From the NCBI GenBank assembly GCA_028714495.1, contig JAQTMH010000003.1, positions 136,496 to 200,495 on the forward strand: a stretch of 64,000 nucleotides of DNA, written 5' to 3'. A program made the position numbers and the translations under genes. The stretch's first letter is position 1, and each line of letters begins with the position of its first letter. Of this stretch, positions 14,844-63,971 are shown one piece after another. Origin of the DNA: Patescibacteria group bacterium (lineage in GTDB: Bacteria > Patescibacteriota > Patescibacteriia > JAHIZJ01). The notes under the pieces are model-generated. The model did not search any database. It was not told the origin of the DNA and worked only from the letters and a program-made list of their open reading frames with translations.

Positions 14844-15341
14844 TCATGAGAAAAAACGCCGGATGAGGGTAGTATTTATATAGAGGTATGGGTATACTTC
14901 ACCCTCCTTTGCCAGCTTGTGTTTAATCGGGTTGTATTTCAAATATTCTATATACCTAACAAAATCATCCTCATCTCGAATAATGCGGTCATGGAAAGAA
15001 GATTGCCAATAGAATCTCCTACCGGGGGGCAAAGGATGATCATCCTTTGCCCCAGACAACAAGATATTTGCGCTCCTTGATGTGTTGCGCTTAATATTAT
15101 GCATGATTTCAGAAATAGTATATTTGCCTTGCGGTTTAATCATGATGTGGAGATGGTCGGGTATGAATACATAACCAAACAATAAAAACCTCATCCATTC
15201 CTGAGCCAGGTGGATTTTGCACATGCCTAACCGCGCCAGGCCGACATTTTGAAAATAAGGATACTTATCCTTTGTTTTTGTTGTCACAAAATAGACTGCG
15301 TCTTCCAAATAAATCCTTTTTGCAAGATGTTTGTGTAACAT
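14844..15341 (-). CDS. REP-associated tyrosine transposase (IS200/IS605 TnpA-like, HuH)
   Basis: HuH motif IPDHLHIMI. C-terminal RFYWQSSFHDRIIRDEDDFVRYIEYLKYNPIKH is typical of the RAYT/Transposase_17 family. 165 aa. Inserted between 7TM paralogs. Confidence 0.72.
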   Translation of the reverse strand: MLHKHLAKRIYLEDAVYFVTTKTKDKYPYFQNVGLARLGMCKIHLAQEWMRFLLFGYVFIPDHLHIMIKPQGKYTISEIMHNIKRNTSRSANILLSGAKDDHPLPPGRRFYWQSSFHDRIIRDEDDFVRYIEYLKYNPIKHKLAKEGEVYPYLYINTTLIRRFFS

Positions 15342-20014: not shown

Positions 20015-23000
20015 TTAATGGACGATGATGAGTCTCTTCTCTGCCGGGTAGTTATCCGCCCGGATTTTCACGAAATAGATGCCGCTTGGCACCACTGAGC
20101 CGTCAGAGTTTCTGCCATTCCAGATGATGGCGTGCGGACCCTGGGCCAGCGGTTCATCAAGCAAACTCTTCACTTTTCGGCCGGTGATATCAAATACGTC
20201 AACTCGAACCGGCGACTCTTTCTCCAGGGTAAATGAGACTGTGACGGGAGCGCTTGAATTCGCCGGATTGGGCGAAAGCATAAGTCCCGTGCCGACAATC
20301 GAAGCAGCCAGAGACTGCCTTCCCAGCCACGCGTTTTTCGCCCAGACCGAGTTTGGCGACTTACCGGCAAAGATATAGAGAGTGTCAGCCTCATTGGGCG
20401 TTGTCACGGTGAAAAGCTCGCCAATCTGATGGTCAATCAGCCGGCCAAGATTGAAGTCCTTCCACAGATGGAACTTCCCTGTCCGCCTGTTGCCGACAGC
20501 CACGGTTACCCGACAGGGCGTATCAGCTGAGAGGACGATGTTCAGTTTATACGCTTCACTCCGAGTTAGGGTAAAGCCGCCTTGTTTCAGCTCATAGTCG
20601 TACCAATTCGTTCCGCCGTTGACTAAGAGCCAGCCGTTATTGTTCTCCATCCGGAAATCCGCCCAGCGAAGTTGTGGATACCTCGCCAGCCAGCAAGCTC
20701 CGGGTGTCGAGAAATCGCCGTTTCCGAGGAAGCTTCCTTCATCGCGTTCGCAAGCGATCGGCACGGGCAGTGTCTGTTTCCACCGGACGCTCACATCCTT
20801 GAGCCAGACCGAACGGTCAACCCAGCCCAGGTAGAAAGTAAGCCGGCCATTGGGATCAGTGACATTGGACCTGAACGGCAGAGTAAGGCGTCGTTCAGTC
20901 GAAGTGAGTGGTACTTCTTCCCAGAGCACGTGGTTGCCGCGCGAATCCTCGAGCGAAACCACTACAGTTCCCGGATCGTTGGTTACTCCCGTGAAAACCA
21001 CCTCGAGATCGCTGTTGGCGGTCAGGTAGACCCAGTCCTGTGAGAGTTTGACCTCGTACCATTCATGCGGTCCATTGATGTGGCCTTCAAACAGGCCGTT
21101 GAAGTTGGTGACAACATAGGGCAGGTTGGGATGTTCCACAGTCCAGCAACTCTGGCCGTCGAACTGACCGTTGCCGATGAAACTGCCTGAATCGTCGCCT
21201 GAGCAAACTGGTTGCGGAGGCGGGGTTTCGGCATAACGTACAACAACATCCTTGAGCCAGACCGAACGGTCAACCCAGCCCAGGTAGAAAGTAAGCCGGC
21301 CATTGGGATCAGTGACATTGGACCTGAACGGCAGAGTAAGGCGTCGTTCAGTCGAAGTGAGTGGTACTTCTTCCCAGAGCACGTGGTTGCCGCGCGAATC
21401 CTCGAGCGAAACCACTACAGTTCCCGGATCGTTGGTTACTCCCGTGAAAACCACCTCGAGATCGCTGTTGGCGGTCAGGTAGACCCAGTCCTGTGAGAGT
21501 TTGACCTCGTACCATTCATGCGGTCCATTGATGTGGCCTTCAAACAGGCCGTTGAAGTTGGTGACAACATAGGGCAGGTTGGGATGTTCCACAGTCCAGC
21601 AACTCTGGCCGTCGAACTGACCGTTGCCGATGAAACTGTTGGGGTCGTCTGAGGAACACTCTTCGGGACCACCATAGCCGCCGCCCTCACCTTCTTCACC
21701 ACAGGGGGGAAGTTCCTGTATCTCGTCGACTCGGTTGTTGCGCCAGATAAAACGGTATGTCACATCACGTCCGCGGTGATAGAAATCGATCGCCCCCAGC
21801 CCATCAATTACATACTCGTCTCGTGTCGGGCAACCAAATTCAGCAGGTCCACCGTGACTTAGGTAGTAATCAAGGAAGCCGGTCCTGACGCAGTAGGCCT
21901 CATTGGTAGCGCAGGCATTGCCGTCGCCATTGTTCGGATCGTACATGACCATAACCAGCCCAAAAGCGGCGTGGTCGAAAAACTGGACATCGTAGCCATT
22001 CCACTGGTGAACGTGCGCCGGATGCCAGTCGTATTGGATGGCATGGCCAAGCCACTGTGAACCGCCGTTGCGGTTGAAGCAATCGACAAAGCGGTAACTG
22101 ATGTTATTGTCGTTGCGCCATCCGTCGGCAAACCAACCTGGAGCGCAAGACCCAGGAGGATACGGCCTAAGGTATGGATTGTATCCATCCCAGAGACGTT
22201 CTCCTCGCACGTACTCCTGCACAGATGAGACGTTAGCGATGCCGTAGGTATTCTGGTAGTAACCCCGTCGTTCCGGAGGCACATAACGCTCATCATTGAT
22301 TGGCATGCCTTCGGGCGAAGTTGGACCGCCACGTTGGGCCCAGCCCTTCTGATTGTAGTCAGATCGGCTGTTTTCCCAGAAGTCATTCCGGACAGTGTAC
22401 GCGTGAGTTGCTCCGCCGTAGACATCCAGCAAGATACCGCAGTTGCCAAATTCTCCTCCGCCGAAGTTCTTGCACAGACAGTTGGTCGGCACATGATTGT
22501 CGCCGTAGACCGGCCGCTCGCCTTCGGGGTGATAGAAATGGATGTCCCACTGGAGACGGCCGTACTTGCGGTCGCCGCCGTTTGAGTTGTACTCATCATT
22601 GAAGAGCGAGGCATAGTCGCCTGGTCGATAGGCCGGGTTGCGAAGCCAGCCTTGGACCGCATAGCTACCCCGTGAACTCATAGTCAGCTTGCCGTCCTGG
22701 CCGCGCTGAAGCGTATGCGTAAACCTTCCTGTCACGCTCCAGTTTTGCTCGACATTGCCGACTTCGTAGAGTCCGCTATCATCAATCTTGTTCACCCAGT
22801 CCACTAGCGCCACATGACCGTGTCCACCGCCAGAGTAGCAAAGGATGTCGCCGTGCTTGGGCAATTCCTGGGTTCCACTATTCTCATAGGCCACCAAGCC
22901 TTTGGTTCTGGCCGAACCGTAGTATTCATCGCCATCGCCGCTCCAATCCGAATGCTTGTGCACCCGATTTACCAGTTCAACACAGTGGTATTGACTTCCG

Positions 23001-24219: not shown

Positions 24220-24295
24220 GCAACCGTAGCTCAGCCAGGGAGAGCACCCAACAACAACAAAAGGGATGTCCCGGGTTCAAACCCCGGCGGTTGCA
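24220..24295 (+). tRNA. tRNA-like gene with intact acceptor/D/T arms but aberrant anticodon arm (possible pseudo- or non-canonical tRNA)
   Basis: GCAACCG-TA-GCTC-AGCCAGGGA-GAGC-A ... CCGGG-TTCAAAC-CCCGG-CGGTTGC-A pair perfectly. The anticodon arm is CCCAA-CAACAACAA-AAGGG: only 3 G-C pairs, A/A mismatches and a 9-nt CAA-repeat loop. No encoded CCA. Confidence 0.4.
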
Positions 24296-24340
24296 AATGC
24301 GGTCAAACGCGCTTACGGATGGATTTCCGCCAAAGGCGGA

Positions 24341-24364
24341 CCCTGAACTCTATGTAGTTCAGGG
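24341..24364. repeat. REP-like hairpin CCCTGAACT-ctatgt-AGTTCAGGG
   Basis: Same architecture and loop (ctatgt) as the hairpin at 19725. Confidence 0.5.
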
Positions 24365-48010: not shown

Positions 48011-48652
48011 TTACAGGCCATAATCGGGATTATGAAAGACCCTCCATTTGTTAAATGGCCAGGCCCTCACCCAAGTTCGGCCAATGATGTATTTCTTGTC
48101 AATCGGCCCGATGCGGCGGGAATCAAGGCTTTGTTCCCGATTATCGCCCATGACATAATATTCATTAGGGCTTAAGGTGACCTGGTCGCTGCCCGCGGTT
48201 AAAACGTCAGTATCAAGGTAGTCTCTTTCGTCAAGAGCCTGGCCCTTGGGATTACTATCGTTATAAATAATAACCCGCCCATTGCGAATTTCCACTTTTT
48301 CGCCGGGCAAGCCAATAACCCGCTTGATAAAAAATTGGGAGGGATTCTGGGGGTAACGGAAAACGATGATATCGCCCCGGGCTGGCTTTTCGAAACGGTA
48401 AGTGATTTCATCAATCACCAGATATTCATTATCGTAAAAACTCGGTTCCATTGACGCGCCCTTTACGTAAAAAGGTTGGATCAAAAAATATCTCACCGGA
48501 ATAATTATCGCCAATGAGATAACAATGACTTTGACAATTTCCAGAATAAAGGTGCCGGTTGATTTTATGAATCCGCTGGCTTTGCCTTCGGGATCATCGG
48601 CGGGAAGATAAGTGCCCTGGCGAGGCTTATTGATTTTGTCTAGGAATGTCAT
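48011..48652 (-). CDS. lepB: signal peptidase I
   Basis: KGASMEPSF (Ser nucleophile), GDNREQSLDSRRIGPI (box E). Confidence 0.8.
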   Translation of the reverse strand: MTFLDKINKPRQGTYLPADDPEGKASGFIKSTGTFILEIVKVIVISLAIIIPVRYFLIQPFYVKGASMEPSFYDNEYLVIDEITYRFEKPARGDIIVFRYPQNPSQFFIKRVIGLPGEKVEIRNGRVIIYNDSNPKGQALDERDYLDTDVLTAGSDQVTLSPNEYYVMGDNREQSLDSRRIGPIDKKYIIGRTWVRAWPFNKWRVFHNPDYGL

Positions 48653-48703
48653 GTTTTTTATTCAACTTAATTTAATAAATCTTTTAACTCGATTTTGGCA
48701 CCA

Positions 48704-48724
48704 TAACCACTGAGCTATACGAGC
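48704..48724 (-). other. 21-nt fragment identical to a tRNA 5' end (acceptor + D arm): GCTCGTATAGCTCAGTGGTTA
   Basis: The rest of the tRNA is absent locally. Confidence 0.3.
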
Positions 48725-48740
48725 GTGGCTAGTAGATTAT

Positions 48741-48934
48741 TAATTAACGCCCCCTGCCCCGCATCGAACGACTTCGAGTTTGCCGAGAAGGAGTTCTGGT
48801 GCGGGGTAACCCCCGCCCGAGGCGGGTCCGCCTTTGGCGGAAGCTGAGTCCCGGTGTCCCGATCGCTTGCGCGTCGGGAATCGGGATCCCGATTGCGGCG
48901 TTAGCCGCACGTCGGGACTAATCGTTATAGAATC
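48741..48934 (-). other. GC-rich, hairpin-dense structured RNA region (unclassified ncRNA or REP/BIME-like cluster) in tRNA trailer
   Basis: Local GC is far above the window average. Nested stems: GTCCCGA...TCGGGAC, ATCGGGATCCCGAT, CCGCCAAAGGCGG, CCCGCCtcGGGCGGG. No ORF support. Confidence 0.3.
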
Positions 48935-49119
48935 TGGTGGACGATGGAGGACTTGAACCTCCGACCTCACGAACCCGCCTGCCAAAGCTGGTGGGCGGCA
49001 CAAGACTCGAACTTGTGACTTCTATCGTGTGAGGATAGCGCTCTAACCAACTGAGCTAGCCGCCCACCAGCGGCGGGCAGGTGTGAATCGTGCGCTCTAA
49101 CCAACTGAGCTAATCGTCC
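48935..49119 (-). tRNA. tRNA-Val(CAC) split at anticodon-loop position 37/38 by a 108-nt insert that contains another tRNA
   Basis: 5' part GGACGAT-TA-GCTC-AGTTGGTTA-GAGC-G-CACGA-TTCACA (49082-49119). 3' part T-TCGTG-AGGTC-GGAGG-TTCAAGT-CCTCC-ATCGTCC-A-CCA (48935-48973). All four stems are Watson-Crick perfect. The insert ends pair (CCTGCCCGCC / GGCAGGCGGG). Confidence 0.55.
48989..49065 (-). tRNA. tRNA-Val(CAC), complete, CCA encoded
   Basis: GGGCGGC-TA-GCTC-AGTTGGTTA-GAGC-G-CTATC-CTCACAC-GATAG-AAGTC-ACAAG-TTCGAGT-CTTGT-GCCGCCC-A-CCA. Canonical cloverleaf, A73. Confidence 0.8.
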
Positions 49120-49274
49120 ATACTTGCAGGTGAGCGCTCCCCGTTCTGGACCAAAAGAATAAACAAATATTTTATCAAAACTTTTCTTTTTTGCTAATAT
49201 TCGCAAAAAGTGACTCAATTATAACACATCAAAAATAAAAAAGCAAACGCTTTATTTATGCTTTATCCGTCTAT

Positions 49275-57827: not shown

Positions 57828-58418
57828 CTAGGCGACGGTTAAAGTCATGGTGGCCGAGAAATTACCAGCCGGATCCTCGGCACCTACTATGAAGTTCAAA
57901 AGCGTGTTGTCAATCTGATAGGCGCCTTTACCGTTGCTGGCTGTGGCAGTCATTAGGTTTCTGGCGGCGTTCAAATACTGATCGGCAGTTCCAGCAGTTA
58001 CGCCAGTGGCGGAAGCGCCGTTCAAAGGCGTAATCTGTCCCGGTGTCCATTTCAAGCTGTTGTTAAGAGTAATCTGTATATTAGCATCAGTTACGTCTTT
58101 AAAGTTCTCGATCGAGCTGGTAGTGGCTGACCAGCCAGCGCCAGAACCACGGTAATCAGTTACTTTAACATTGTTGAAATTCACTGCTGAATTGACGGCC
58201 GTACCAGCATTGACGTTGGCAAAAGAGATATTGGAGTTTTGGGCGGTGATATCGAGCGAGCCGGCCACGATGTTTTGGTAGAGCTCGGAGTTAGCCGTAT
58301 TGGCCGCGCGGGAAATTTCCATTGAACCAAACATCATCGCCAGCACCGCAAAAATTATCAGAGTGCTGAATATTTTTTGCTTAATTCCTTTTGCCTTGTT
58401 TTTGTTTAGATTATCCAT
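57828..58418 (-). CDS. TasA/camelysin-like secreted protein (tandem paralog 1)
   Basis: The signal anchor then N.VAGSLDI resembles SipW-cognate signal-peptide proteins. C-terminal MTLTVA. Confidence 0.4.
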   Translation of the reverse strand: MDNLNKNKAKGIKQKIFSTLIIFAVLAMMFGSMEISRAANTANSELYQNIVAGSLDITAQNSNISFANVNAGTAVNSAVNFNNVKVTDYRGSGAGWSATTSSIENFKDVTDANIQITLNNSLKWTPGQITPLNGASATGVTAGTADQYLNAARNLMTATASNGKGAYQIDNTLLNFIVGAEDPAGNFSATMTLTVA

Positions 58419-58436
58419 CGCTTTGTTACGGTCTTA

Positions 58437-59021
58437 TTATGCCACGGTTAAGGTCAGAGTGGCCGTATAATTGCCGGCCAAATCCGCGGCGTCCAATTCG
58501 AAGTTCAAAATCGTGTTGTCAATCTGATAGGCGCCCTTACCATTGCTGGCTGAGGCAGTTATCAGGTTACGCGTAGTATTTAAATAGACATCATCGGTTC
58601 CAGCGGATACCCCGGTGGCCGAGGCGCCGTTTAAAGCCGAAATATCACCCGGCGACCACTTTAAGCTGTTATTGAGAGTAATCTGTTTGTTAACATTTCC
58701 GACATCCGCGAAATTCTCAATCGAACCAGTGGTGGCTGACCAGCCAGCGCCAGAACCACGGTAATCAGTAACTTTGATATTATTGACGTTCATCCGCGAA
58801 TTGAAGTTTGTACCGGCATTGACGTTGTTGAATGAGACATTGGAGTTTTGGGCGCTGATGTCGAGCGAGCCGGCCACGATGTTTTGGTAGAGCTCGGAGT
58901 TAGCCGTATTGGCCGCGCGGGAAACTTCCATCGAGCCAAAAATCATTCCCAGCACGAAAAAGATGATAAGGGTGCTGAAGATTTTTTGCTGAATGATTTT
59001 GATTTTTTTTGATAAGCTCAT
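58437..59021 (-). CDS. TasA/camelysin-like secreted protein (tandem paralog 2)
   Basis: About 70% identical to paralog 1. Confidence 0.4.
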   Translation of the reverse strand: MSLSKKIKIIQQKIFSTLIIFFVLGMIFGSMEVSRAANTANSELYQNIVAGSLDISAQNSNVSFNNVNAGTNFNSRMNVNNIKVTDYRGSGAGWSATTGSIENFADVGNVNKQITLNNSLKWSPGDISALNGASATGVSAGTDDVYLNTTRNLITASASNGKGAYQIDNTILNFELDAADLAGNYTATLTLTVA

Positions 59022-59039
59022 GAGAGTATAGAAACTTCT

Positions 59040-59618
59040 TTAGGCTACTGTTAAAGTCATGGTGGCCGCGTAATTACCAGACGGATCAGCCGCCTCGACC
59101 TCGAAGTTCAAAAGCGTATTATCAATCTGATAGGCGCCCAATCCATTACTAGCAGTAGCTGTCATCAAATTGCGAGTAGTGTTTAAATAGACACCGTCAG
59201 TTCCAGCCGTGACGCCAGTGATAGTAGAACCGTTCAGGTTGGTAATATCACCCGGCGACCACTTCAGGCTGCTATTGAGAGTAATCTGGACATTGGTATC
59301 CGTAGAATCAACAAAGTTTTCAATCGATCCGGTGGTGGCGGCCCAGCCGGCGCCGGTGCCGCGGTAATCGGTTACCTTCACGTTGTTAAAGTTCATCAGT
59401 GAATTAGCGGCCGTACCAGCATTCGTGTTGTTGAAAGAGATGTTTGAGTTCTGGGCGGCGATATCTAAAGATCCGGTGACGATGTTTTGGTAGAGTTCGG
59501 AATTAGCCGTATTGGCCGCCCGCGACACCTCCATTGAGGCATAGATCATGAACAGGGCGAAGAATACTACAATGACACCAAATATCTCCTCTTTAATTAG
59601 ATGAATTTTGTTTTTCAT
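59040..59618 (-). CDS. TasA/camelysin-like secreted protein (tandem paralog 3)
   Basis: Paralog with the same motifs. Confidence 0.4.
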   Translation of the reverse strand: MKNKIHLIKEEIFGVIVVFFALFMIYASMEVSRAANTANSELYQNIVTGSLDIAAQNSNISFNNTNAGTAANSLMNFNNVKVTDYRGTGAGWAATTGSIENFVDSTDTNVQITLNSSLKWSPGDITNLNGSTITGVTAGTDGVYLNTTRNLMTATASNGLGAYQIDNTLLNFEVEAADPSGNYAATMTLTVA

Positions 59619-61652: not shown

Positions 61653-63971
61653 ATGAAAATAAGAATATACTTCGGCGTTTTTCTCACCGGCGCCTCGATA
61701 TTAATGCTCGAGGTCGTCCTGACGCGGATTCTGTCCGTAATCGTATTGTACCACTTCGCCTTCCTGGTTGTCTCGTTGGCCCTTCTGTCTCTCGGCGCGA
61801 GCGGGATCGTTCTCCACTTGTTCCCGAGGTTCTTTCCTAGAGAAAAAATTTTTACCCGGCTCTCTCAAAGCGCCCTCATTTATTCTCTTTCAATCACTGT
61901 CTTTATCGTTCTGGTCTCTCTCGGCGACCTAGAAAACCCTTATCTCGTGCTCGGTCTTTGCCTTATTCCCTTCTTCTTCGGCGGGCTCGTTTTGTCATTA
62001 GCACTCTCCTCTTTTTCTGAACACATCAGCCGATTGTATTTCGCCGATCTTCTCGGCTCGGGCGTGGGCTGTCTTGCCGTTATCGGCCTGATGAATATCC
62101 TTCCGGCCCCAAGCGTCGTGTTCATTATCTCCGTACTCTCAGCCGGCGCGGCCTGGTTTTTTCGTTCTTCTGAACCGATCCCTGCTTCTCGGTGCGGCCG
62201 TCTGGCGCTCGGTTTGGCGATTGGCTCGCTGGCCTTAGCCCTGCTGAACACGGCCACACCAATAATAACCGTGGACTATGCTCGCGCCTTAATGGAACCC
62301 GAGGTGAATCAACACGTGGAATATGAAAAATGGAATGCTTTCTCACGGATCGTGGTGTACAATCGAGAAAATCAGAACCTTAAAAAAATCCTAATTGACT
62401 CAGCCGCGACAACCACGATGGTGCGGTTCAGCGGGCGACTCGAGGAAATGGTCATGGTGAAAGACTTGGTTTTTACCTTGCCCTATCATGTGAAAACGTA
62501 TCCTGATGTGCTGGTTTTAGGGCCGGGCGGTGGATCGGATATTATCGCGGCGCTGGCTTTCGGCAGTACCAATATTACCGGCATCGAGATTAATCCAATC
62601 ATTGTTAATGATCTTGTGAAAAAGCAGTATCGTGACTTTACCGGCGATCTGTACCGTTATCCCGGCGTTCACGTGAAAATCGGCGAAGCGCGCAGCGTCC
62701 TAGAACGAGACGTCCAAAAATATGATCTTATACAAAACACCTTCGTCGACACCTGGGCGGCGACGTCAGCTGGCGCTTATGCCCTCTCGGAGAATAATCT
62801 CTATACCGTTGAAGCTTTTAAAACATACTTTAACCATTTAACGCCGCAGGGGGTTTTTTCGATCACCCGCTGGTGGACCGATCAACCCCATGAATCGCTG
62901 CGCCTAATCTCTCTGGCACTCGAGGCCTACGACCAGCTGGGAATAGCCAATCCGGCCGACAATATTATTATTGTCGGACAGCGCGATACTGATGGCCCAG
63001 GACAGCATAAAGCGACATTCCTTTTTAAAAAATCAAACTTTACGCCGGAAGAAATAGAAAAAGCCGCTAAGTTCGCGAATGACCATCAATACCCGATCCT
63101 TTACACTCCCGCCCAGAAAATCGATCCGACCCTCACCGGCTTGATCGAATCACGCGACCGGCGACAATTTCAGCGAACATATGCCGTAGACATCAGTCCG
63201 ACGACGGATAACCGTCCGTACTTCTTCTACATGATGCGCTTCCGAGATTTCTTCAGAGCGGCCGTCAACGATACGCCTTTCTCCGAAATTTACTCAAGCC
63301 CGCGCAATCTCATGAAGGCACTGATTGTGATTGTTGTTTTTCTGCTGGTTATTATCCTCCTGCCCGCCGGATTGATGAGATCGCGCCGAACAGCCTTTCA
63401 GGCGAGTGCCTGGACCGTGGGTTATTTCGTTATTCTGGGCATCGCTTTTATGACAGTCGAGATTTATCTAATGCAGAAATTTGTTTTGTTTCTTGGCCAT
63501 CCAGTCTATGCTCTCGGCGCTGTCCTTTTTATGCTTTTGATATCTAGCGGTTTTGGCAGCGCTTTGACGCAGCACGTCTCGGAACGATCGCAAATAAGAC
63601 GATTGCGCTGGTGCTTGCTCGGCATCGTGCTCATATTAGGACTGTATGCCGCGGCTCTTCCCTCGCTCTTCGCTTCGCTCATCGCTGCCTCCCAAATTTG
63701 GCGTCTAGCCTTTACCCTGGCGGTTATTGCTCCCGTCGGATTATTAATGGGCACCGCTTTCCCGCTGGGCTTGAAGCTTTTCACTAAAAACCAGCCAGGA
63801 CTTGTGCCGTGGCTGTGGGGCATAAATGTTGCCGCTTCGGTACTTGGATCGGTCGTCGCCTTTCTTGTTTCAATTCATGCTGGTTTTGGACAAACCCTAC
63901 TGCTCGGTACTGGTTGCTATCTTTTAGCTTTGCTCATGGCAAGGAAACCGAAATTTTCTTTCGTCTGTTAA
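61653..63971 (+). CDS. fused polytopic membrane protein / spermidine-synthase-like (polyamine aminopropyltransferase fold) domain
   Basis: Central VLVLGPGGGSDIIA..GIEINP..D..D resembles the SpeE GGGDGG..E.D region. Multiple TM helices at both ends. Confidence 0.55.
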   Translation: MKIRIYFGVFLTGASILMLEVVLTRILSVIVLYHFAFLVVSLALLSLGASGIVLHLFPRFFPREKIFTRLSQSALIYSLSITVFIVLVSLGDLENPYLVLGLCLIPFFFGGLVLSLALSSFSEHISRLYFADLLGSGVGCLAVIGLMNILPAPSVVFIISVLSAGAAWFFRSSEPIPASRCGRLALGLAIGSLALALLNTATPIITVDYARALMEPEVNQHVEYEKWNAFSRIVVYNRENQNLKKILIDSAATTTMVRFSGRLEEMVMVKDLVFTLPYHVKTYPDVLVLGPGGGSDIIAALAFGSTNITGIEINPIIVNDLVKKQYRDFTGDLYRYPGVHVKIGEARSVLERDVQKYDLIQNTFVDTWAATSAGAYALSENNLYTVEAFKTYFNHLTPQGVFSITRWWTDQPHESLRLISLALEAYDQLGIANPADNIIIVGQRDTDGPGQHKATFLFKKSNFTPEEIEKAAKFANDHQYPILYTPAQKIDPTLTGLIESRDRRQFQRTYAVDISPTTDNRPYFFYMMRFRDFFRAAVNDTPFSEIYSSPRNLMKALIVIVVFLLVIILLPAGLMRSRRTAFQASAWTVGYFVILGIAFMTVEIYLMQKFVLFLGHPVYALGAVLFMLLISSGFGSALTQHVSERSQIRRLRWCLLGIVLILGLYAAALPSLFASLIAASQIWRLAFTLAVIAPVGLLMGTAFPLGLKLFTKNQPGLVPWLWGINVAASVLGSVVAFLVSIHAGFGQTLLLGTGCYLLALLMARKPKFSFVC

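What the first reader, a model, noticed from the sequence alone, without database searches (positions are those of the whole stretch)
48935..49119. A complete tRNA-Val(CAC) nested in the anticodon loop of a second, otherwise perfect tRNA-Val(CAC)
On the minus strand, a canonical 77-nt tRNA-Val(CAC) with encoded CCA (48989-49065) is flanked by the 5' half (49082-49119) and 3' half (48935-48973) of another tRNA. Joined, these give flawless acceptor, D, anticodon and T stems, anticodon CAC, A73 and CCA. The split falls between positions 37 and 38, the canonical intron site of archaeal and eukaryal tRNAs. The 108-nt insert begins and ends with complementary segments (CCTGCCCGCC / GGCAGGCGGG) that would extend the anticodon helix. 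Bacterial tRNA introns are normally group I self-splicing introns, which this is not. A tRNA-in-tRNA arrangement therefore suggests an unusual spliceosomal or BHB-like intron, a tRNA-targeting mini-insertion that brought its own replacement tRNA, or a processing-dependent split tRNA. Both copies share an identical D arm, which argues for duplication plus insertion.
Basis: seen in the sequence. Interest (0 to 1): 0.82.

Follow-up and report, generated by a model that had tools for sequence, protein, structure and literature searches.

The report
tRNA-carrying insert splits tRNA-Val gene
In this candidate-phyla-radiation bacterium the normal tRNA-Val(CAC) gene is cut in its anticodon loop by a 108-base palindrome-ended insert that carries its own working tRNA-Val(CAC), and the same kind of insert recurs, sometimes several layers deep, in distant relatives, so it looks like a small mobile element that replaces the gene it breaks rather than an intron.

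Summary
On the minus strand, 49119-49082 and 48973-48935 are the two halves of a flawless tRNA-Val(CAC). This is the ordinary Patescibacteria gene, 75/77 identical to an uninterrupted copy elsewhere. It is split exactly between positions 37 and 38 by 108 nt that hold a second, different tRNA-Val(CAC) at 49065-48989.

It is not a BHB, group I or group II intron. The same architecture occurs in at least seven independent assemblies from three deep Patescibacteria lineages. Each has near-invariant termini, CCTGCCCGCC...GGCAGGCGGG.
- Shells and cargo tRNAs have uncoupled histories.
- One tRNA type is cargo in one genome and shell in another.
- The termini occur in both orientations.
- Cargo-less "solo" copies exist. 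One 36-nt copy sits in frame inside a protein gene, with an empty site in homologues and no target duplication.
- Shells range from pristine to badly decayed, while the innermost tRNA is always intact.

Best reading (about 0.6): a DNA-level palindromic mini-element, like Rickettsia palindromic elements, targets the tRNA-Val anticodon loop and survives because it brings a replacement tRNA. Repeated hits give Russian-doll loci. The mobilising enzyme is unknown, and splicing of the shell is not excluded.

The parts
49218..49226 (-). Extended -10 promoter element TGTTATAAT, preceded by conserved GTTTGCTTTTTTATTTTT. It is the only promoter-like signal upstream of the nest, so it would drive both the shell and the inner tRNA.
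   Evidence: Invariant TGnTATAAT in six syntenic loci (alignment A1); sequence.
49193..49212 (-). Conserved transcript leader CACTTTTTGCGAATATTAGC, function unknown.
   Evidence: Conserved in the window, L002, L006 and L009.
49082..49119 (-). Shell 5' half: positions 1-37 of the resident type A tRNA-Val(CAC) (acceptor, D arm, anticodon stem 5' strand, loop UUCACA).
   Evidence: identical to intact type A genes in L014 and L027.
49072..49081 (-). Left terminus of the insert, CCTGCCCGCC.
   Evidence: The same 10-mer is at the same site in L116, L118, L127, L141 and L271.
49066..49071 (-). Leader GCTGGT, which pairs with A73-CCA-GC of the inner tRNA to give an extended acceptor stem.
   Evidence: fold. 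It covaries with its partner in B-type cassettes of L002, L005 and L011.
48989..49065 (-). Inner (cargo) type B tRNA-Val(CAC) with encoded CCA; the presumed working gene.
   Evidence: ARAGORN; Rfam tRNA 66.8 bits.
48984..48988 (-). Trailer GCTTT (GC closes the extended stem; UUU forms the asymmetric bulge).
   Evidence: The GC-NNN-GGCAGGCGGG pattern is shared by L118, L141, L271 and L002.
48974..48983 (-). Right terminus of the insert, GGCAGGCGGG. It pairs with the left terminus, with a U.G at bp 3 and a C.A at bp 7.
48935..48973 (-). Shell 3' half: positions 38-76 of the type A tRNA-Val(CAC), including CCA.
48740..48930 (-). Field of GC-rich hairpins between the nest and lepB (TCCCGAC..TCGGGA type, TCCGCCAAAGGCGGA, CCCGCCTCGGGCGGG). 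Probably further small palindromic inserts and debris of older shells.
   Evidence: Fold z = -5.2. Four of the 18 GC-rich perfect hairpins in the whole window lie here. A TCCCGAC..GTCGGGA-type hairpin family also occurs in L271.
49131..49144 (-). Possible 5' remnant (ACGGGGA-GC-GCTC-A) of a third, outermost, decayed tRNA shell; low confidence.
   Evidence: Resembles acceptor + D stem by eye. CGGGG pairs with CCCCG at 48806-48802 and encloses the whole region in the 376-nt MFE.
48797..48826 (-). Possible 3' remnant of that outermost shell: hairpin CCCGCCTCGGGCGGG in place of a T arm, then GGTT-ACCCCGC-A-CCA; low confidence.
   Evidence: Same layout as the decayed shells of L009 and L141.
48697..48724 (-). 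Orphan 5' fragment of yet another tRNA-Val type (GCTCGTA-TA-GCTC-AGTGGTTA..), resembling the type C gene of L005 and L013.
48011..48652 (-). lepB (signal peptidase I), the conserved downstream neighbour used as the synteny anchor.

Best explanation
The outer tRNA is the resident, ancestral tRNA-Val(CAC) gene of this Patescibacteria lineage. It was interrupted at the DNA level, exactly between positions 37 and 38. The interrupting sequence is a about 108-nt non-autonomous element with imperfect palindromic termini (CCTGCCCGCC ... GGCAGGCGGG) and a complete tRNA-Val(CAC) as cargo.

An insertion into a presumably sole essential tRNA gene is tolerated only if the element brings a working copy. That would explain why surviving insertions in live genes carry the cargo, while cargo-less 'solo' copies sit in already dead shells or, in frame, in a protein gene.

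The whole unit is transcribed from the single upstream promoter. The termini and the leader/trailer form a long stalk that presents the inner pre-tRNA, which is then matured by the normal RNase P and 3'-end pathway. The outer halves are not rejoined and decay with time.

The cargo tRNA has the same anticodon loop as the target, so it can be hit again. This would give Russian-doll loci and fast turnover of tRNA-Val sequence types.

Shown: the architecture, its recurrence, the uncoupled histories of shell and cargo, both orientations, solo copies with a filled/empty pair and no target duplication, and the absence of intron hallmarks.

Inferred: the DNA-level transposition itself, the enzyme (unknown; a REP-associated Y1 transposase gene at 14844-15341 is only a candidate), non-splicing of the shell, and the processing route.
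For: (1) The shell is the ordinary gene. The spliced sequence is 75/77 identical to uninterrupted tRNA-Val(CAC) next to lepB in other Patescibacteria.

(2) The same nest, at the same 37/38 site and with inserts of 104-112 nt, is in L116, L118 (Kazan-3B-28), L119, L127 (Shapirobacteria), L141 and L271. L271 is an unbiased LepB-anchored sample. Variant forms are in L005 and L013.

(3) The distribution is patchy. Lineages with LepB 50-61% identical to the window have the uninterrupted gene, while lineages at 35-38% are nested.

(4) Histories are uncoupled. L116/L127 inserts are 86.7% identical but their shells 76.7%. Window/L116 shells are 80.5% identical but their inserts 64.1%. Type GGACCCG is cargo in L118 and shell in L127. 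Type B is cargo in the window, stands alone in L011, and is the shell in L005.

(5) The termini are sequence-invariant while every tRNA helix covaries.

(6) The termini occur inverted relative to the tRNAs. L009 matches the reverse complement of the window's right end 15/15, and L119 matches 14/15.

(7) Solo copies exist: 20 nt in the D loop of the L005 shell, 35 nt in L271, 59 nt at 37/38 of a dead type A fragment in L009, and 36 nt in frame in a 495-aa ORF of L116. The last is absent as an exact 12-aa/36-nt gap in seven homologues, with no target duplication.

(8) Shells form a decay series, while the innermost tRNA is always intact.

(9) There is no BHB, group I or group II signal.
Against: No transposase or other mobilising enzyme has been tied to the element. 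The RAYT gene in the window has no flanking copies of the termini and is sporadic in relatives.

Only one copy of the element lies in the 64-kb window. No common target motif is evident between the tRNA site and the ORF site.

The shell in the window is flawless. This fits a recent insertion, but equally fits selection on a spliced product.

Five of the comparison loci were found with a pattern that required CCYGCC after the anticodon loop, so part of the conservation of the left terminus is ascertainment. The right terminus, and L271, L013, L002 and L009, are free of that bias.

Identical termini across very deep lineages with very different cargo imply strong constraint. Host-level selection for RNA processing could supply that instead of mobility. 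No expression data were available.
Confidence: 0.6

Rival explanations
1. It is a true intron of a new bacterial kind. A protein endonuclease recognises the conserved terminal helix and cuts both strands at its base. A ligase such as RtcB rejoins the halves, so one transcript yields two tRNA-Val(CAC) molecules, the spliced outer one and the inner one.
For: The position is the canonical 37/38 site. The shell is flawless in the window, L116, L118 and L271. The terminal helix is sequence-invariant, including a U.G and a C.A pair. Patescibacteria are unusually intron-rich (PMC13011429).
Against: No BHB can be drawn, and both junctions lie at one step of a continuous helix. Shells in L127, L141, L005, L009 and L119 carry lethal defects: a T loop of ATCAGCA, T arms replaced by GC hairpins, a CAT anticodon, and D-loop inserts. 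Every nest keeps an uninterrupted innermost tRNA, and no insert-only tRNA-Val was found. The termini also occur inverted and in a protein-coding gene, where an intron signal makes no sense. No RtcB or EndA lies in the 64-kb window, which is weak evidence only.
Confidence: 0.1
2. The nest is a functional processing scaffold. The terminal helix is a conserved site, for example for RNase III or Mini-III. The outer tRNA-like fold gives RNase P/Z entry points or stability. The shell and termini would then be kept by host selection for expression of the inner tRNA, whatever their origin.
For: Termini are conserved across lineages whose cargo tRNAs are only 62-87% identical. In B-type cassettes without a recognisable shell the stalk is kept by compensatory changes: CCACTTC/GAAGTGG in L005, and leader/trailer covariation in L002, L005 and L011. 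Decayed shells keep acceptor pairing and a hairpin of T-arm length. The junction reads ACCU/GGGU, close to the ACCU/AGGU site reported for Bacillus Mini-III (own recollection, not tested).
Against: Most Patescibacteria express the same tRNA without any of this. L011 has the B tRNA with no termini. Solo copies in a coding region and in dead fragments cannot serve tRNA processing. The inverted orientation changes the RNA, AAA bulge on the 5' strand instead of UUU on the 3' strand.
Confidence: 0.15
3. The arrangement is a scar of ordinary site-specific or homologous recombination at a tRNA integration hot spot. Integrase-borne islands would have come and gone and left tRNA fragments.
For: tRNA genes are classic integration sites. 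The locus holds many tRNA-Val fragments: L006 has an intact tRNA followed by a 5'-truncated type A copy, L074 has a tandem array of 5' halves, and upstream gene content varies between relatives.
Against: No repeated core sequence flanks the insert. The halves rejoin with no duplicated or missing base. The 5' half is not fused to a foreign 3' half as in attL. No integrase lies within the window. Integration scars would not carry the same 10-nt inverted termini in unrelated lineages.
Confidence: 0.07
4. Assembly or binning artefact: a chimeric join of two tRNA-Val alleles.
For: The two copies share a 21-nt D arm. Logan assemblies repeatedly break just upstream of lepB.
Against: The junctions are not at the shared sequence. 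The insert is bounded by its own complementary termini. The same architecture is present in NCBI, JGI, ENA and Logan assemblies of different organisms.
Confidence: 0.01

Closest known systems
Rickettsia palindromic elements and similar small non-autonomous palindromic inserts (MITE, REP/REPIN classes)
   Same: Short hairpin-forming DNA with inverted termini and no coding capacity for its own mobility. It is found in frame inside protein genes with empty sites in homologues, and it also sits in RNA-gene regions. The in-frame behaviour of RPEs is from the MITE review PMC10969869.
   Different: Copy number is very low here: one in 64 kb. No target duplication was seen. The termini are only about 10-15 nt. 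Above all, many copies carry a complete tRNA gene and sit in the anticodon loop of the cognate tRNA gene, which to my knowledge has not been reported for RPE, REP or MITE families.
Integrative elements (phages, islands) that target tRNA genes and carry a replacement piece of the tRNA
   Same: The logic matches: the element disrupts an essential tRNA gene and restores function with its own copy. The anticodon loop is a known sublocation for integration (own knowledge of Williams 2002; not checked here).
   Different: Those elements are kilobases long and encode an integrase. They duplicate an att core and fuse the host 5' part to the element's 3' part. Here a 108-nt insert carries a whole tRNA, leaves both host halves unfused, has no repeat at the junctions, and has no integrase nearby.
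Archaeal BHB tRNA introns, including multi-intron and 'transposed' introns of Thermoproteales and the C/D-box sRNA in the tRNA-Trp intron
   Same: The position is 37/38. Related inserts occur at other tRNA positions in relatives (D loop, T-arm region). A functional RNA can lie inside the intervening sequence (own knowledge).
   Different: There is no bulge-helix-bulge (and the hand test). The organism is bacterial. Insert-bearing copies decay. The termini also occur inverted and outside tRNAs.
Group I introns in Patescibacteria tRNA genes (PMC13011429)
   Same: Same phylum, also in anticodon loops, and also missed by standard tRNA finders.
   Different: Those introns are over 200 nt and self-splicing, follow a U, end in G and match RF00028. 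This insert is 108 nt, follows A37 and matches no intron model.
Split and permuted tRNA genes (Nanoarchaeum, Cyanidioschyzon)
   Same: The 5' and 3' halves are followed and preceded by GC-rich complementary segments that bring the halves together (own knowledge).
   Different: Those halves are the only copy and are joined through a BHB. Here a complete redundant tRNA sits between the halves and no BHB exists.

Membership tests
Archaeal/eukaryal endonuclease-spliced (BHB) tRNA intron | Insert at or near position 37/38 | tested here: met
   The break lies between A37 and U38, fixed by comparison with intact type A genes that have loop TTCACAT.
Archaeal/eukaryal endonuclease-spliced (BHB) tRNA intron | Bulge-helix-bulge: two 3-nt bulges on opposite strands separated by a 4-bp helix, with the splice sites in the bulges | tested here: not met
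   Positions 32-35 (UUCA) cannot pair with intron nt -6..-3 (GGCG). The MFE shows a 5-nt bulge on the 5' strand only, with both junctions at one step of a continuous helix. The result is the same for the 20-nt D-loop insert of L005.
Archaeal/eukaryal endonuclease-spliced (BHB) tRNA intron | Splicing endonuclease (EndA/Sen) and RtcB-type ligase in the genome | not testable with these tools
   None of about 40 ORFs of the 64-kb window matches these families. The rest of the genome is not available.
Archaeal/eukaryal endonuclease-spliced (BHB) tRNA intron | A spliced mature product exists | not testable with these tools
   No RNA data.
Group I intron | 5' exon ends in U (U.G in P1), conserved catalytic core, usually over 200 nt, matches RF00028 | tested here: not met
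   The 5' exon ends in A37 and the insert is 108 nt, 77 of which are a tRNA. There is no Rfam hit at gathering or at E<=1.
Group II intron | Domain V/VI RNA (RF00029) and usually a reverse-transcriptase ORF | tested here: not met
   No Rfam hit; no ORF in the insert.
Tyrosine/serine-integrase element at a tRNA gene | Integrase gene at one end and a repeated att core at both junctions | tested here: not met
   The junctions are TTCACA|CCTGCC and GGCGGG|TTCGTG and share no repeat. No integrase lies in the window.
DDE-transposon-derived MITE | Terminal inverted repeats | tested here: met
   The left end CCTGCCCGCC and the reverse complement of the right end, CCCGCCTGCC, match at 8/10 positions.
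DDE-transposon-derived MITE | Target-site duplication | tested here: not met
   The shell halves rejoin to the exact 77-nt gene. The filled/empty pair L116/L275 shows a clean 36-nt insertion without a repeat.
REP/REPIN with RAYT | A RAYT (Y1 transposase) gene in the genome | tested here: met
   Window 14844-15341(-) matches NF047646 (REP-associated tyrosine transposase) at 106 bits against a cut-off of 80, and PF01797 at 33 bits.
REP/REPIN with RAYT | Many copies of the palindrome in intergenic DNA, and copies flanking the RAYT gene | tested here: not met
   The window holds one copy of the termini. No GC hairpins flank the RAYT gene. RAYT is sporadic in relatives.
Rickettsia-palindromic-element-like selfish palindromes | A hairpin-forming insert found in frame in conserved protein genes, with empty sites in homologues | tested here: met
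   The 36-nt solo copy in the L116 ORF encodes (A)RLQRYAKHCGQ(A). It is present in P0149 and P0150 and absent from seven homologues. The DNA empty site is in L275.
Rickettsia-palindromic-element-like selfish palindromes | Sequence homology to a described RPE family | not tested
   No RPE library was available. The host phylum and the termini differ from what I recall of RPEs.

The most novel reading that the evidence does not exclude
The conserved terminal helix may be the signal of a protein-dependent tRNA splicing or excision system in bacteria that is neither group I/II nor BHB. The nested precursor would then yield two mature tRNA-Val(CAC) molecules, and the excised stalk-plus-tRNA RNA would be the vehicle that reinserts into other tRNA-Val anticodon loops. 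The evidence does not exclude this for the genomes with flawless shells (window, L116, L118, L271).
Probability: 0.08. Interest if true: 0.95.

Novelty: new variant of a known kind. Interest (0 to 1): 0.8.

Why it matters
If the reading holds, this is a small selfish element with an unusual survival trick. It lands in an essential tRNA gene and pays for the damage with its own copy of that gene, so each hit replaces the host's tRNA-Val with a foreign one.

That would explain why closely related Patescibacteria carry tRNA-Val(CAC) genes with quite different acceptor and T stems at the same locus. It would also explain why the locus is littered with tRNA shells.

It matters for annotation: shells are invisible to tRNA finders, and they could be mistaken for introns or split genes. 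It matters for how tRNA identity sets evolve in reduced genomes. It also points to a natural system that inserts DNA precisely, without duplication, at a defined site in a tRNA gene.

It gives a concrete test of whether bacteria outside the group I/II paradigm can splice tRNAs.

Tried and rejected
BHB motif: drawn by hand for the window and for the L005 D-loop insert, and checked against the MFE. It does not form.

Group I, group II or any ribozyme: Rfam at gathering and at E<=1 on the window, and at E<=0.5 on nine related loci, gives only tRNA plus antisense-tRNA look-alikes.

ARAGORN with intron search does not call the outer gene.

In-situ duplication of the resident gene: rejected. The outer copy is the ancestral type A and the inner copy is type B, with different acceptor, anticodon and T stems.

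Integrase att scar: no repeated core and no integrase.

Phage origin: a scan of IMG/VR for CACACCTGCCCGCC returned only chance matches in the rows given.

REP-like abundance: only one copy of the termini in the window. A scan for GC-rich hairpins found 18, clustered after the nest. The match at 63359 is a chance hit inside a gene.

RAYT link: no hairpins flank the gene, and the word-indexed search found few homologues. It is left as an untested candidate.

The metagenome pattern GAGCGNNNNNYTCAYACCYGCC was too loose.

Covariation of shell stems is not used as evidence that the shell functions. The shells are different tRNA-Val genes that were functional before insertion.
Full report
OBSERVATION. 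On the minus strand the sequence reads GGACGATTAGCTCAGTTGGTTAGAGCGCACGATTCACA (49119-49082). Then come 108 nt (49081-48974), then TTCGTGAGGTCGGAGGTTCAAGTCCTCCATCGTCCACCA (48973-48935). ARAGORN and Rfam find only the tRNA-Val(CAC) inside the 108 nt, at 49065-48989, with 66.8 bits. Joining the two flanks gives a 77-nt sequence that ARAGORN calls tRNA-Val(CAC). A scan of species-representative genomes for the 3' part of this outer tRNA returned 17 loci. Twelve of them hold an uninterrupted tRNA-Val(CAC) of this 'type A' in Patescibacteria (Doudnabacteria, Magasanikiibacteriota, Peribacteria, Saccharibacteria) and Actinomycetota, all with anticodon loop TTCACAT or TTCACAC. The L014 copy differs from the window's joined halves at 2 of 77 positions, both in the T loop (own count). 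The break is therefore exactly between 37 and 38, with no base gained or lost. The unit folds as an outer cloverleaf, a stalk and an inner cloverleaf, with z = -5.7 against shuffles.

CONTEXT. The window is from a Patescibacteria (CPR) bacterium. The downstream gene is lepB, followed by hisS, a HIT-family gene, rpsU and yqeY. One conserved extended -10 promoter (TGTTATAAT, 49226-49218) and a conserved leader lie upstream. Nothing promoter-like lies inside the shell, so both tRNAs share a transcript. tRNA-Val(CAC) next to lepB is the rule across the phylum.

NOT A KNOWN INTRON TYPE. A bulge-helix-bulge needs positions 32-35 to pair with the four intron bases before the last two. Here that would be UUCA against GGCG, which does not pair. 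The predicted structure has one 5-nt bulge (UUCAC) and a continuous opposite strand, so both junctions lie at the same step of one helix. The 5' exon ends in A, the insert is 108 nt of which 77 are a tRNA, and no Rfam family other than tRNA matches at any threshold. That rules out group I and group II. [quoted passage not shown] Full-text searches found no report of a tRNA nested in a tRNA.

THE SAME LOCUS IN RELATIVES. Loci anchored on LepB orthologues are unbiased with respect to the tRNA, and they show a very unstable locus.
- L002 (LepB 80% identical) has the type B tRNA with nearly the same termini (CTCGCCCGCC ... GGCAGGCGGA), inside what looks like the last traces of an older shell.
- L005 (76%) has type B as the shell. 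It carries a CAT anticodon, a G.U in the acceptor stem and a 20-nt hairpin CCTGCCTGCCGGTAGGCGGG in its D loop. A third type (C) tRNA-Val(CAC) sits inside its anticodon loop.
- L013 (75%) has type C followed by GCAGGCGGG and the 3' half of yet another shell.
- L011 (74%) has type B alone.
- L006 (72%) has type C followed by a 5'-truncated type A copy.
- L009 (72%) has a fourth type (D), plus a type A fragment with a 59-nt hairpin at the same 37/38 site and a GC hairpin in place of its T arm.
- L271 (62%) has a flawless type D shell. It is split at 37/38 by CCTGCCCGCC-GCAC-[tRNA-Val(CAC)]-GGTGCTCC-GGCAGGCGGG. Upstream lie a type A remnant riddled with hairpins and a 35-nt cargo-less copy of the termini.

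FURTHER NESTS. After filtering it gave five more complete nests, L116, L118, L119, L127 and L141, plus one array of 5' halves, L074. Exact-sequence look-ups place L118 in candidate division Kazan-3B-28 and L127 in Candidatus Shapirobacteria. Insert lengths are 108, 112, 111, 104 and 109 nt. All units fold alike.

WHAT IS CONSERVED AND WHAT IS NOT. In an alignment of six nests, 98.4% of the cells of the proposed structure are paired. All tRNA stems, shell and cargo, show many double changes, while the terminal helix is invariant in sequence. Its U.G at base pair 3 and its C.A at base pair 7 are also kept.
- Caveat 1: the shells are different tRNA-Val genes that were functional before they were hit, so their covariation says nothing about function after insertion.
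- Caveat 2: part of the left terminus was imposed by the search pattern. The right terminus was not, and the window, L271, L013, L002 and L009 were found without the pattern.

EVIDENCE FOR REPEATED, DNA-LEVEL INSERTION.
(a) Distribution is patchy. Lineages with LepB 50-61% identical to the window have the uninterrupted gene, while lineages at 35-38% are nested.
(b) Shell and insert similarities are uncoupled. L116/L127 inserts are 86.7% identical and shells 76.7%. L118/L127 are 83.3% and 69.2%. Window/L116 are 64.1% and 80.5%.
(c) The same tRNA type is cargo in one genome and shell in another. GGACCCG is cargo in L118 and shell in L127. Type B is cargo in the window and shell in L005. For types A, B, D and GGACCCG both uninterrupted and interrupted versions exist.
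(d) The termini occur in both orientations relative to the tRNAs. The L009 insert begins with the exact reverse complement of the window's right end plus its bulge (15/15), and L119 matches 14/15. An RNA splice signal should not be reversible in this way; a palindromic DNA element can be.
(e) Cargo-less copies exist. One of them, 36 nt at L116 1225-1260, lies in frame in a conserved 495-aa ORF and encodes (A)RLQRYAKHCGQ(A). It is shared with an 85%-identical homologue and is missing from seven other homologues. The gap is exactly 12 residues (36 nt) against P0151, whose DNA gives the empty site, and 9-19 residues in the other six. The DNA comparison of the filled and empty sites shows no target duplication. 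This is the behaviour described for Rickettsia palindromic elements (PMC10969869).
(f) Shells form a decay series, while the innermost tRNA is intact in every locus. The shells of the window, L116, L118 and L271 are flawless. L119 has one acceptor mismatch. L127 has a T loop of ATCAGCA. L005, L141 and L009 have inserts, replaced T arms or truncation.
(g) Solo hairpins are seen only in dead shells or, in frame, in the ORF. That is what selection would leave if insert-bearing tRNAs do not function.

MECHANISM, WITH STATUS. Shown: the points above. Inferred: the element inserts as DNA, without duplication, at the 3' end of the anticodon loop (YTCACA|T). Only copies carrying a tRNA-Val(CAC) can survive in a live target. 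The cargo is expressed from the host promoter and released from the stalk by normal pre-tRNA processing. The leader-trailer pairing next to the cargo covaries among B-type cassettes: GCTGGT/ACCAGC, GTCAGT/ACTGAC, GCCAG/CTGGC and CCGGT/ACTGG. The cargo keeps the target loop and can be hit again, which gives layered loci such as L005, L141 and possibly the window itself. In the window, ACGGGGA-GC-GCTC-A at 49144-49131 and a hairpin plus ACCCCGC-A-CCA at 48826-48797 could be a third, old shell (low confidence).

The enzyme is unknown. The window encodes one REP-associated Y1 transposase (NF047646, 106 bits). Enzymes of that class act on imperfect DNA hairpins and leave no duplication. However, the gene is not flanked by the termini and is sporadic in relatives, so this is a lead only. 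No RtcB, EndA, integrase or homing endonuclease was found among about 40 ORFs of the window.

RIVALS. A real, protein-dependent intron remains possible for the genomes with flawless shells, at about 0.1. It does not fit the decayed shells, the reversible termini, the copy in a protein gene or the constant presence of an intact inner tRNA. A processing-scaffold role for the termini and shell, at about 0.15, would explain the strong sequence conservation of the helix and the compensatory changes in shell-less B cassettes. It would not explain the solo copies or the many relatives that do without the structure. Integrase scars (about 0.07) and an assembly artefact (about 0.01) are poorly supported.

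VERDICT. The feature is best filed as a new variant of small palindromic insertion elements. It is distinguished by a tRNA cargo, a cognate-tRNA target and Russian-doll products. I found no description of this in the literature searched.

Noticed in passing
window 24220-24295 (+): A tRNA-like gene scores 46.3 bits with the Rfam tRNA model at relaxed filters but is missed by ARAGORN and by the gathering-mode scan. The acceptor, D and T arms are good. The anticodon arm is replaced by CCCAACAACAACAAAAGGG, which gives no proper stem or anticodon.
   Followed up: partly
window 24325-24343 (+) and 48824-48842 (-): An identical 19-nt GC hairpin, TTCCGCCAAAGGCGGACCC, lies downstream of both the odd tRNA-like gene and the nested tRNA. 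The sequence after it is also loosely similar. It may be a second family of small palindromic inserts or a shared 3' processing or terminator element.
   Followed up: partly
window 14844-15341 (-): A 165-aa REP-associated tyrosine transposase (RAYT; NF047646 at 106 bits, PF01797). It has no flanking GC hairpins and only six homologues by the word-indexed search. A 94-aa, 95%-identical fragment is annotated in an NCBI Patescibacteria MAG.
   Followed up: partly
window 49131-49144 and 48797-48826 (-): Possible third, outermost, decayed tRNA shell enclosing the nest and the hairpin field. The 5' piece looks like acceptor + D stem. The 3' piece looks like a hairpin replacing the T arm, followed by ACCCCGC-A-CCA. 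The two ends pair in the 376-nt MFE.
   Followed up: partly
window 48697-48724 (-): Orphan 5' fragment of another tRNA-Val type (GCTCGTATAGCTCAGTGGTTATGGTGCC), about 45 nt upstream of lepB.
   Followed up: no
L141 1-960: One 2.5-kb contig holds multi-layer nests for both tRNA-Val(CAC) (innermost at 344-417) and tRNA-Val(GAC) (innermost at 658-734). It has other insert families in D loops (after GCTC, or after AGTTGGG), an insert at 36/37 of a GAC shell, and T arms replaced by ACCCCGCCATGGCGGGGT-type hairpins. An approximately 95-110-nt insert at the same D-loop position (after AGTTGGG, before ATAGAGC) is also present in L009 and L012, whose copies resemble each other in sequence.
   Followed up: partly
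L074 (reverse strand) 1835-2090: At least three or four tRNA-Val 5' halves lie in tandem. Each ends at the anticodon loop and is followed by CCCGCCTGACCRCTAAG. The contig ends before any 3' halves. The neighbours are a secretion-tail protein and an XRE/ImmA-like pair, so the host may not be a Patescibacterium.
   Followed up: no
L116 1225-1260: A 36-nt cargo-less copy of the element lies in frame in a conserved hypothetical 495-aa protein. It adds 12 residues that are kept identical in an 85%-identical homologue.
   Followed up: yes
L001, L008, L012, L013, L272, L273 (contig ends): Logan assemblies of several relatives all break 117-370 nt upstream of lepB, inside the tRNA-Val/hairpin region. 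This suggests palindromes or strain-level heterogeneity at the locus.
   Followed up: no
L006 3830-3900 and L012 200-245: A shared structured motif AGGGCGCATGCCCCTTTCCCCAC-hairpin-GTGGGG lies between the tRNA-Val region and lepB, with compensatory changes in the hairpin. It has no Rfam match.
   Followed up: no
window 57828-59618 (-) and 20793-21545: Three tandem paralogous WxL-domain surface protein genes (about 600-nt repeat units, 71-82% identical). Separately, a perfect 300-nt internal repeat lies inside the 1053-aa CHAP/Ig-domain protein gene.
   Followed up: no
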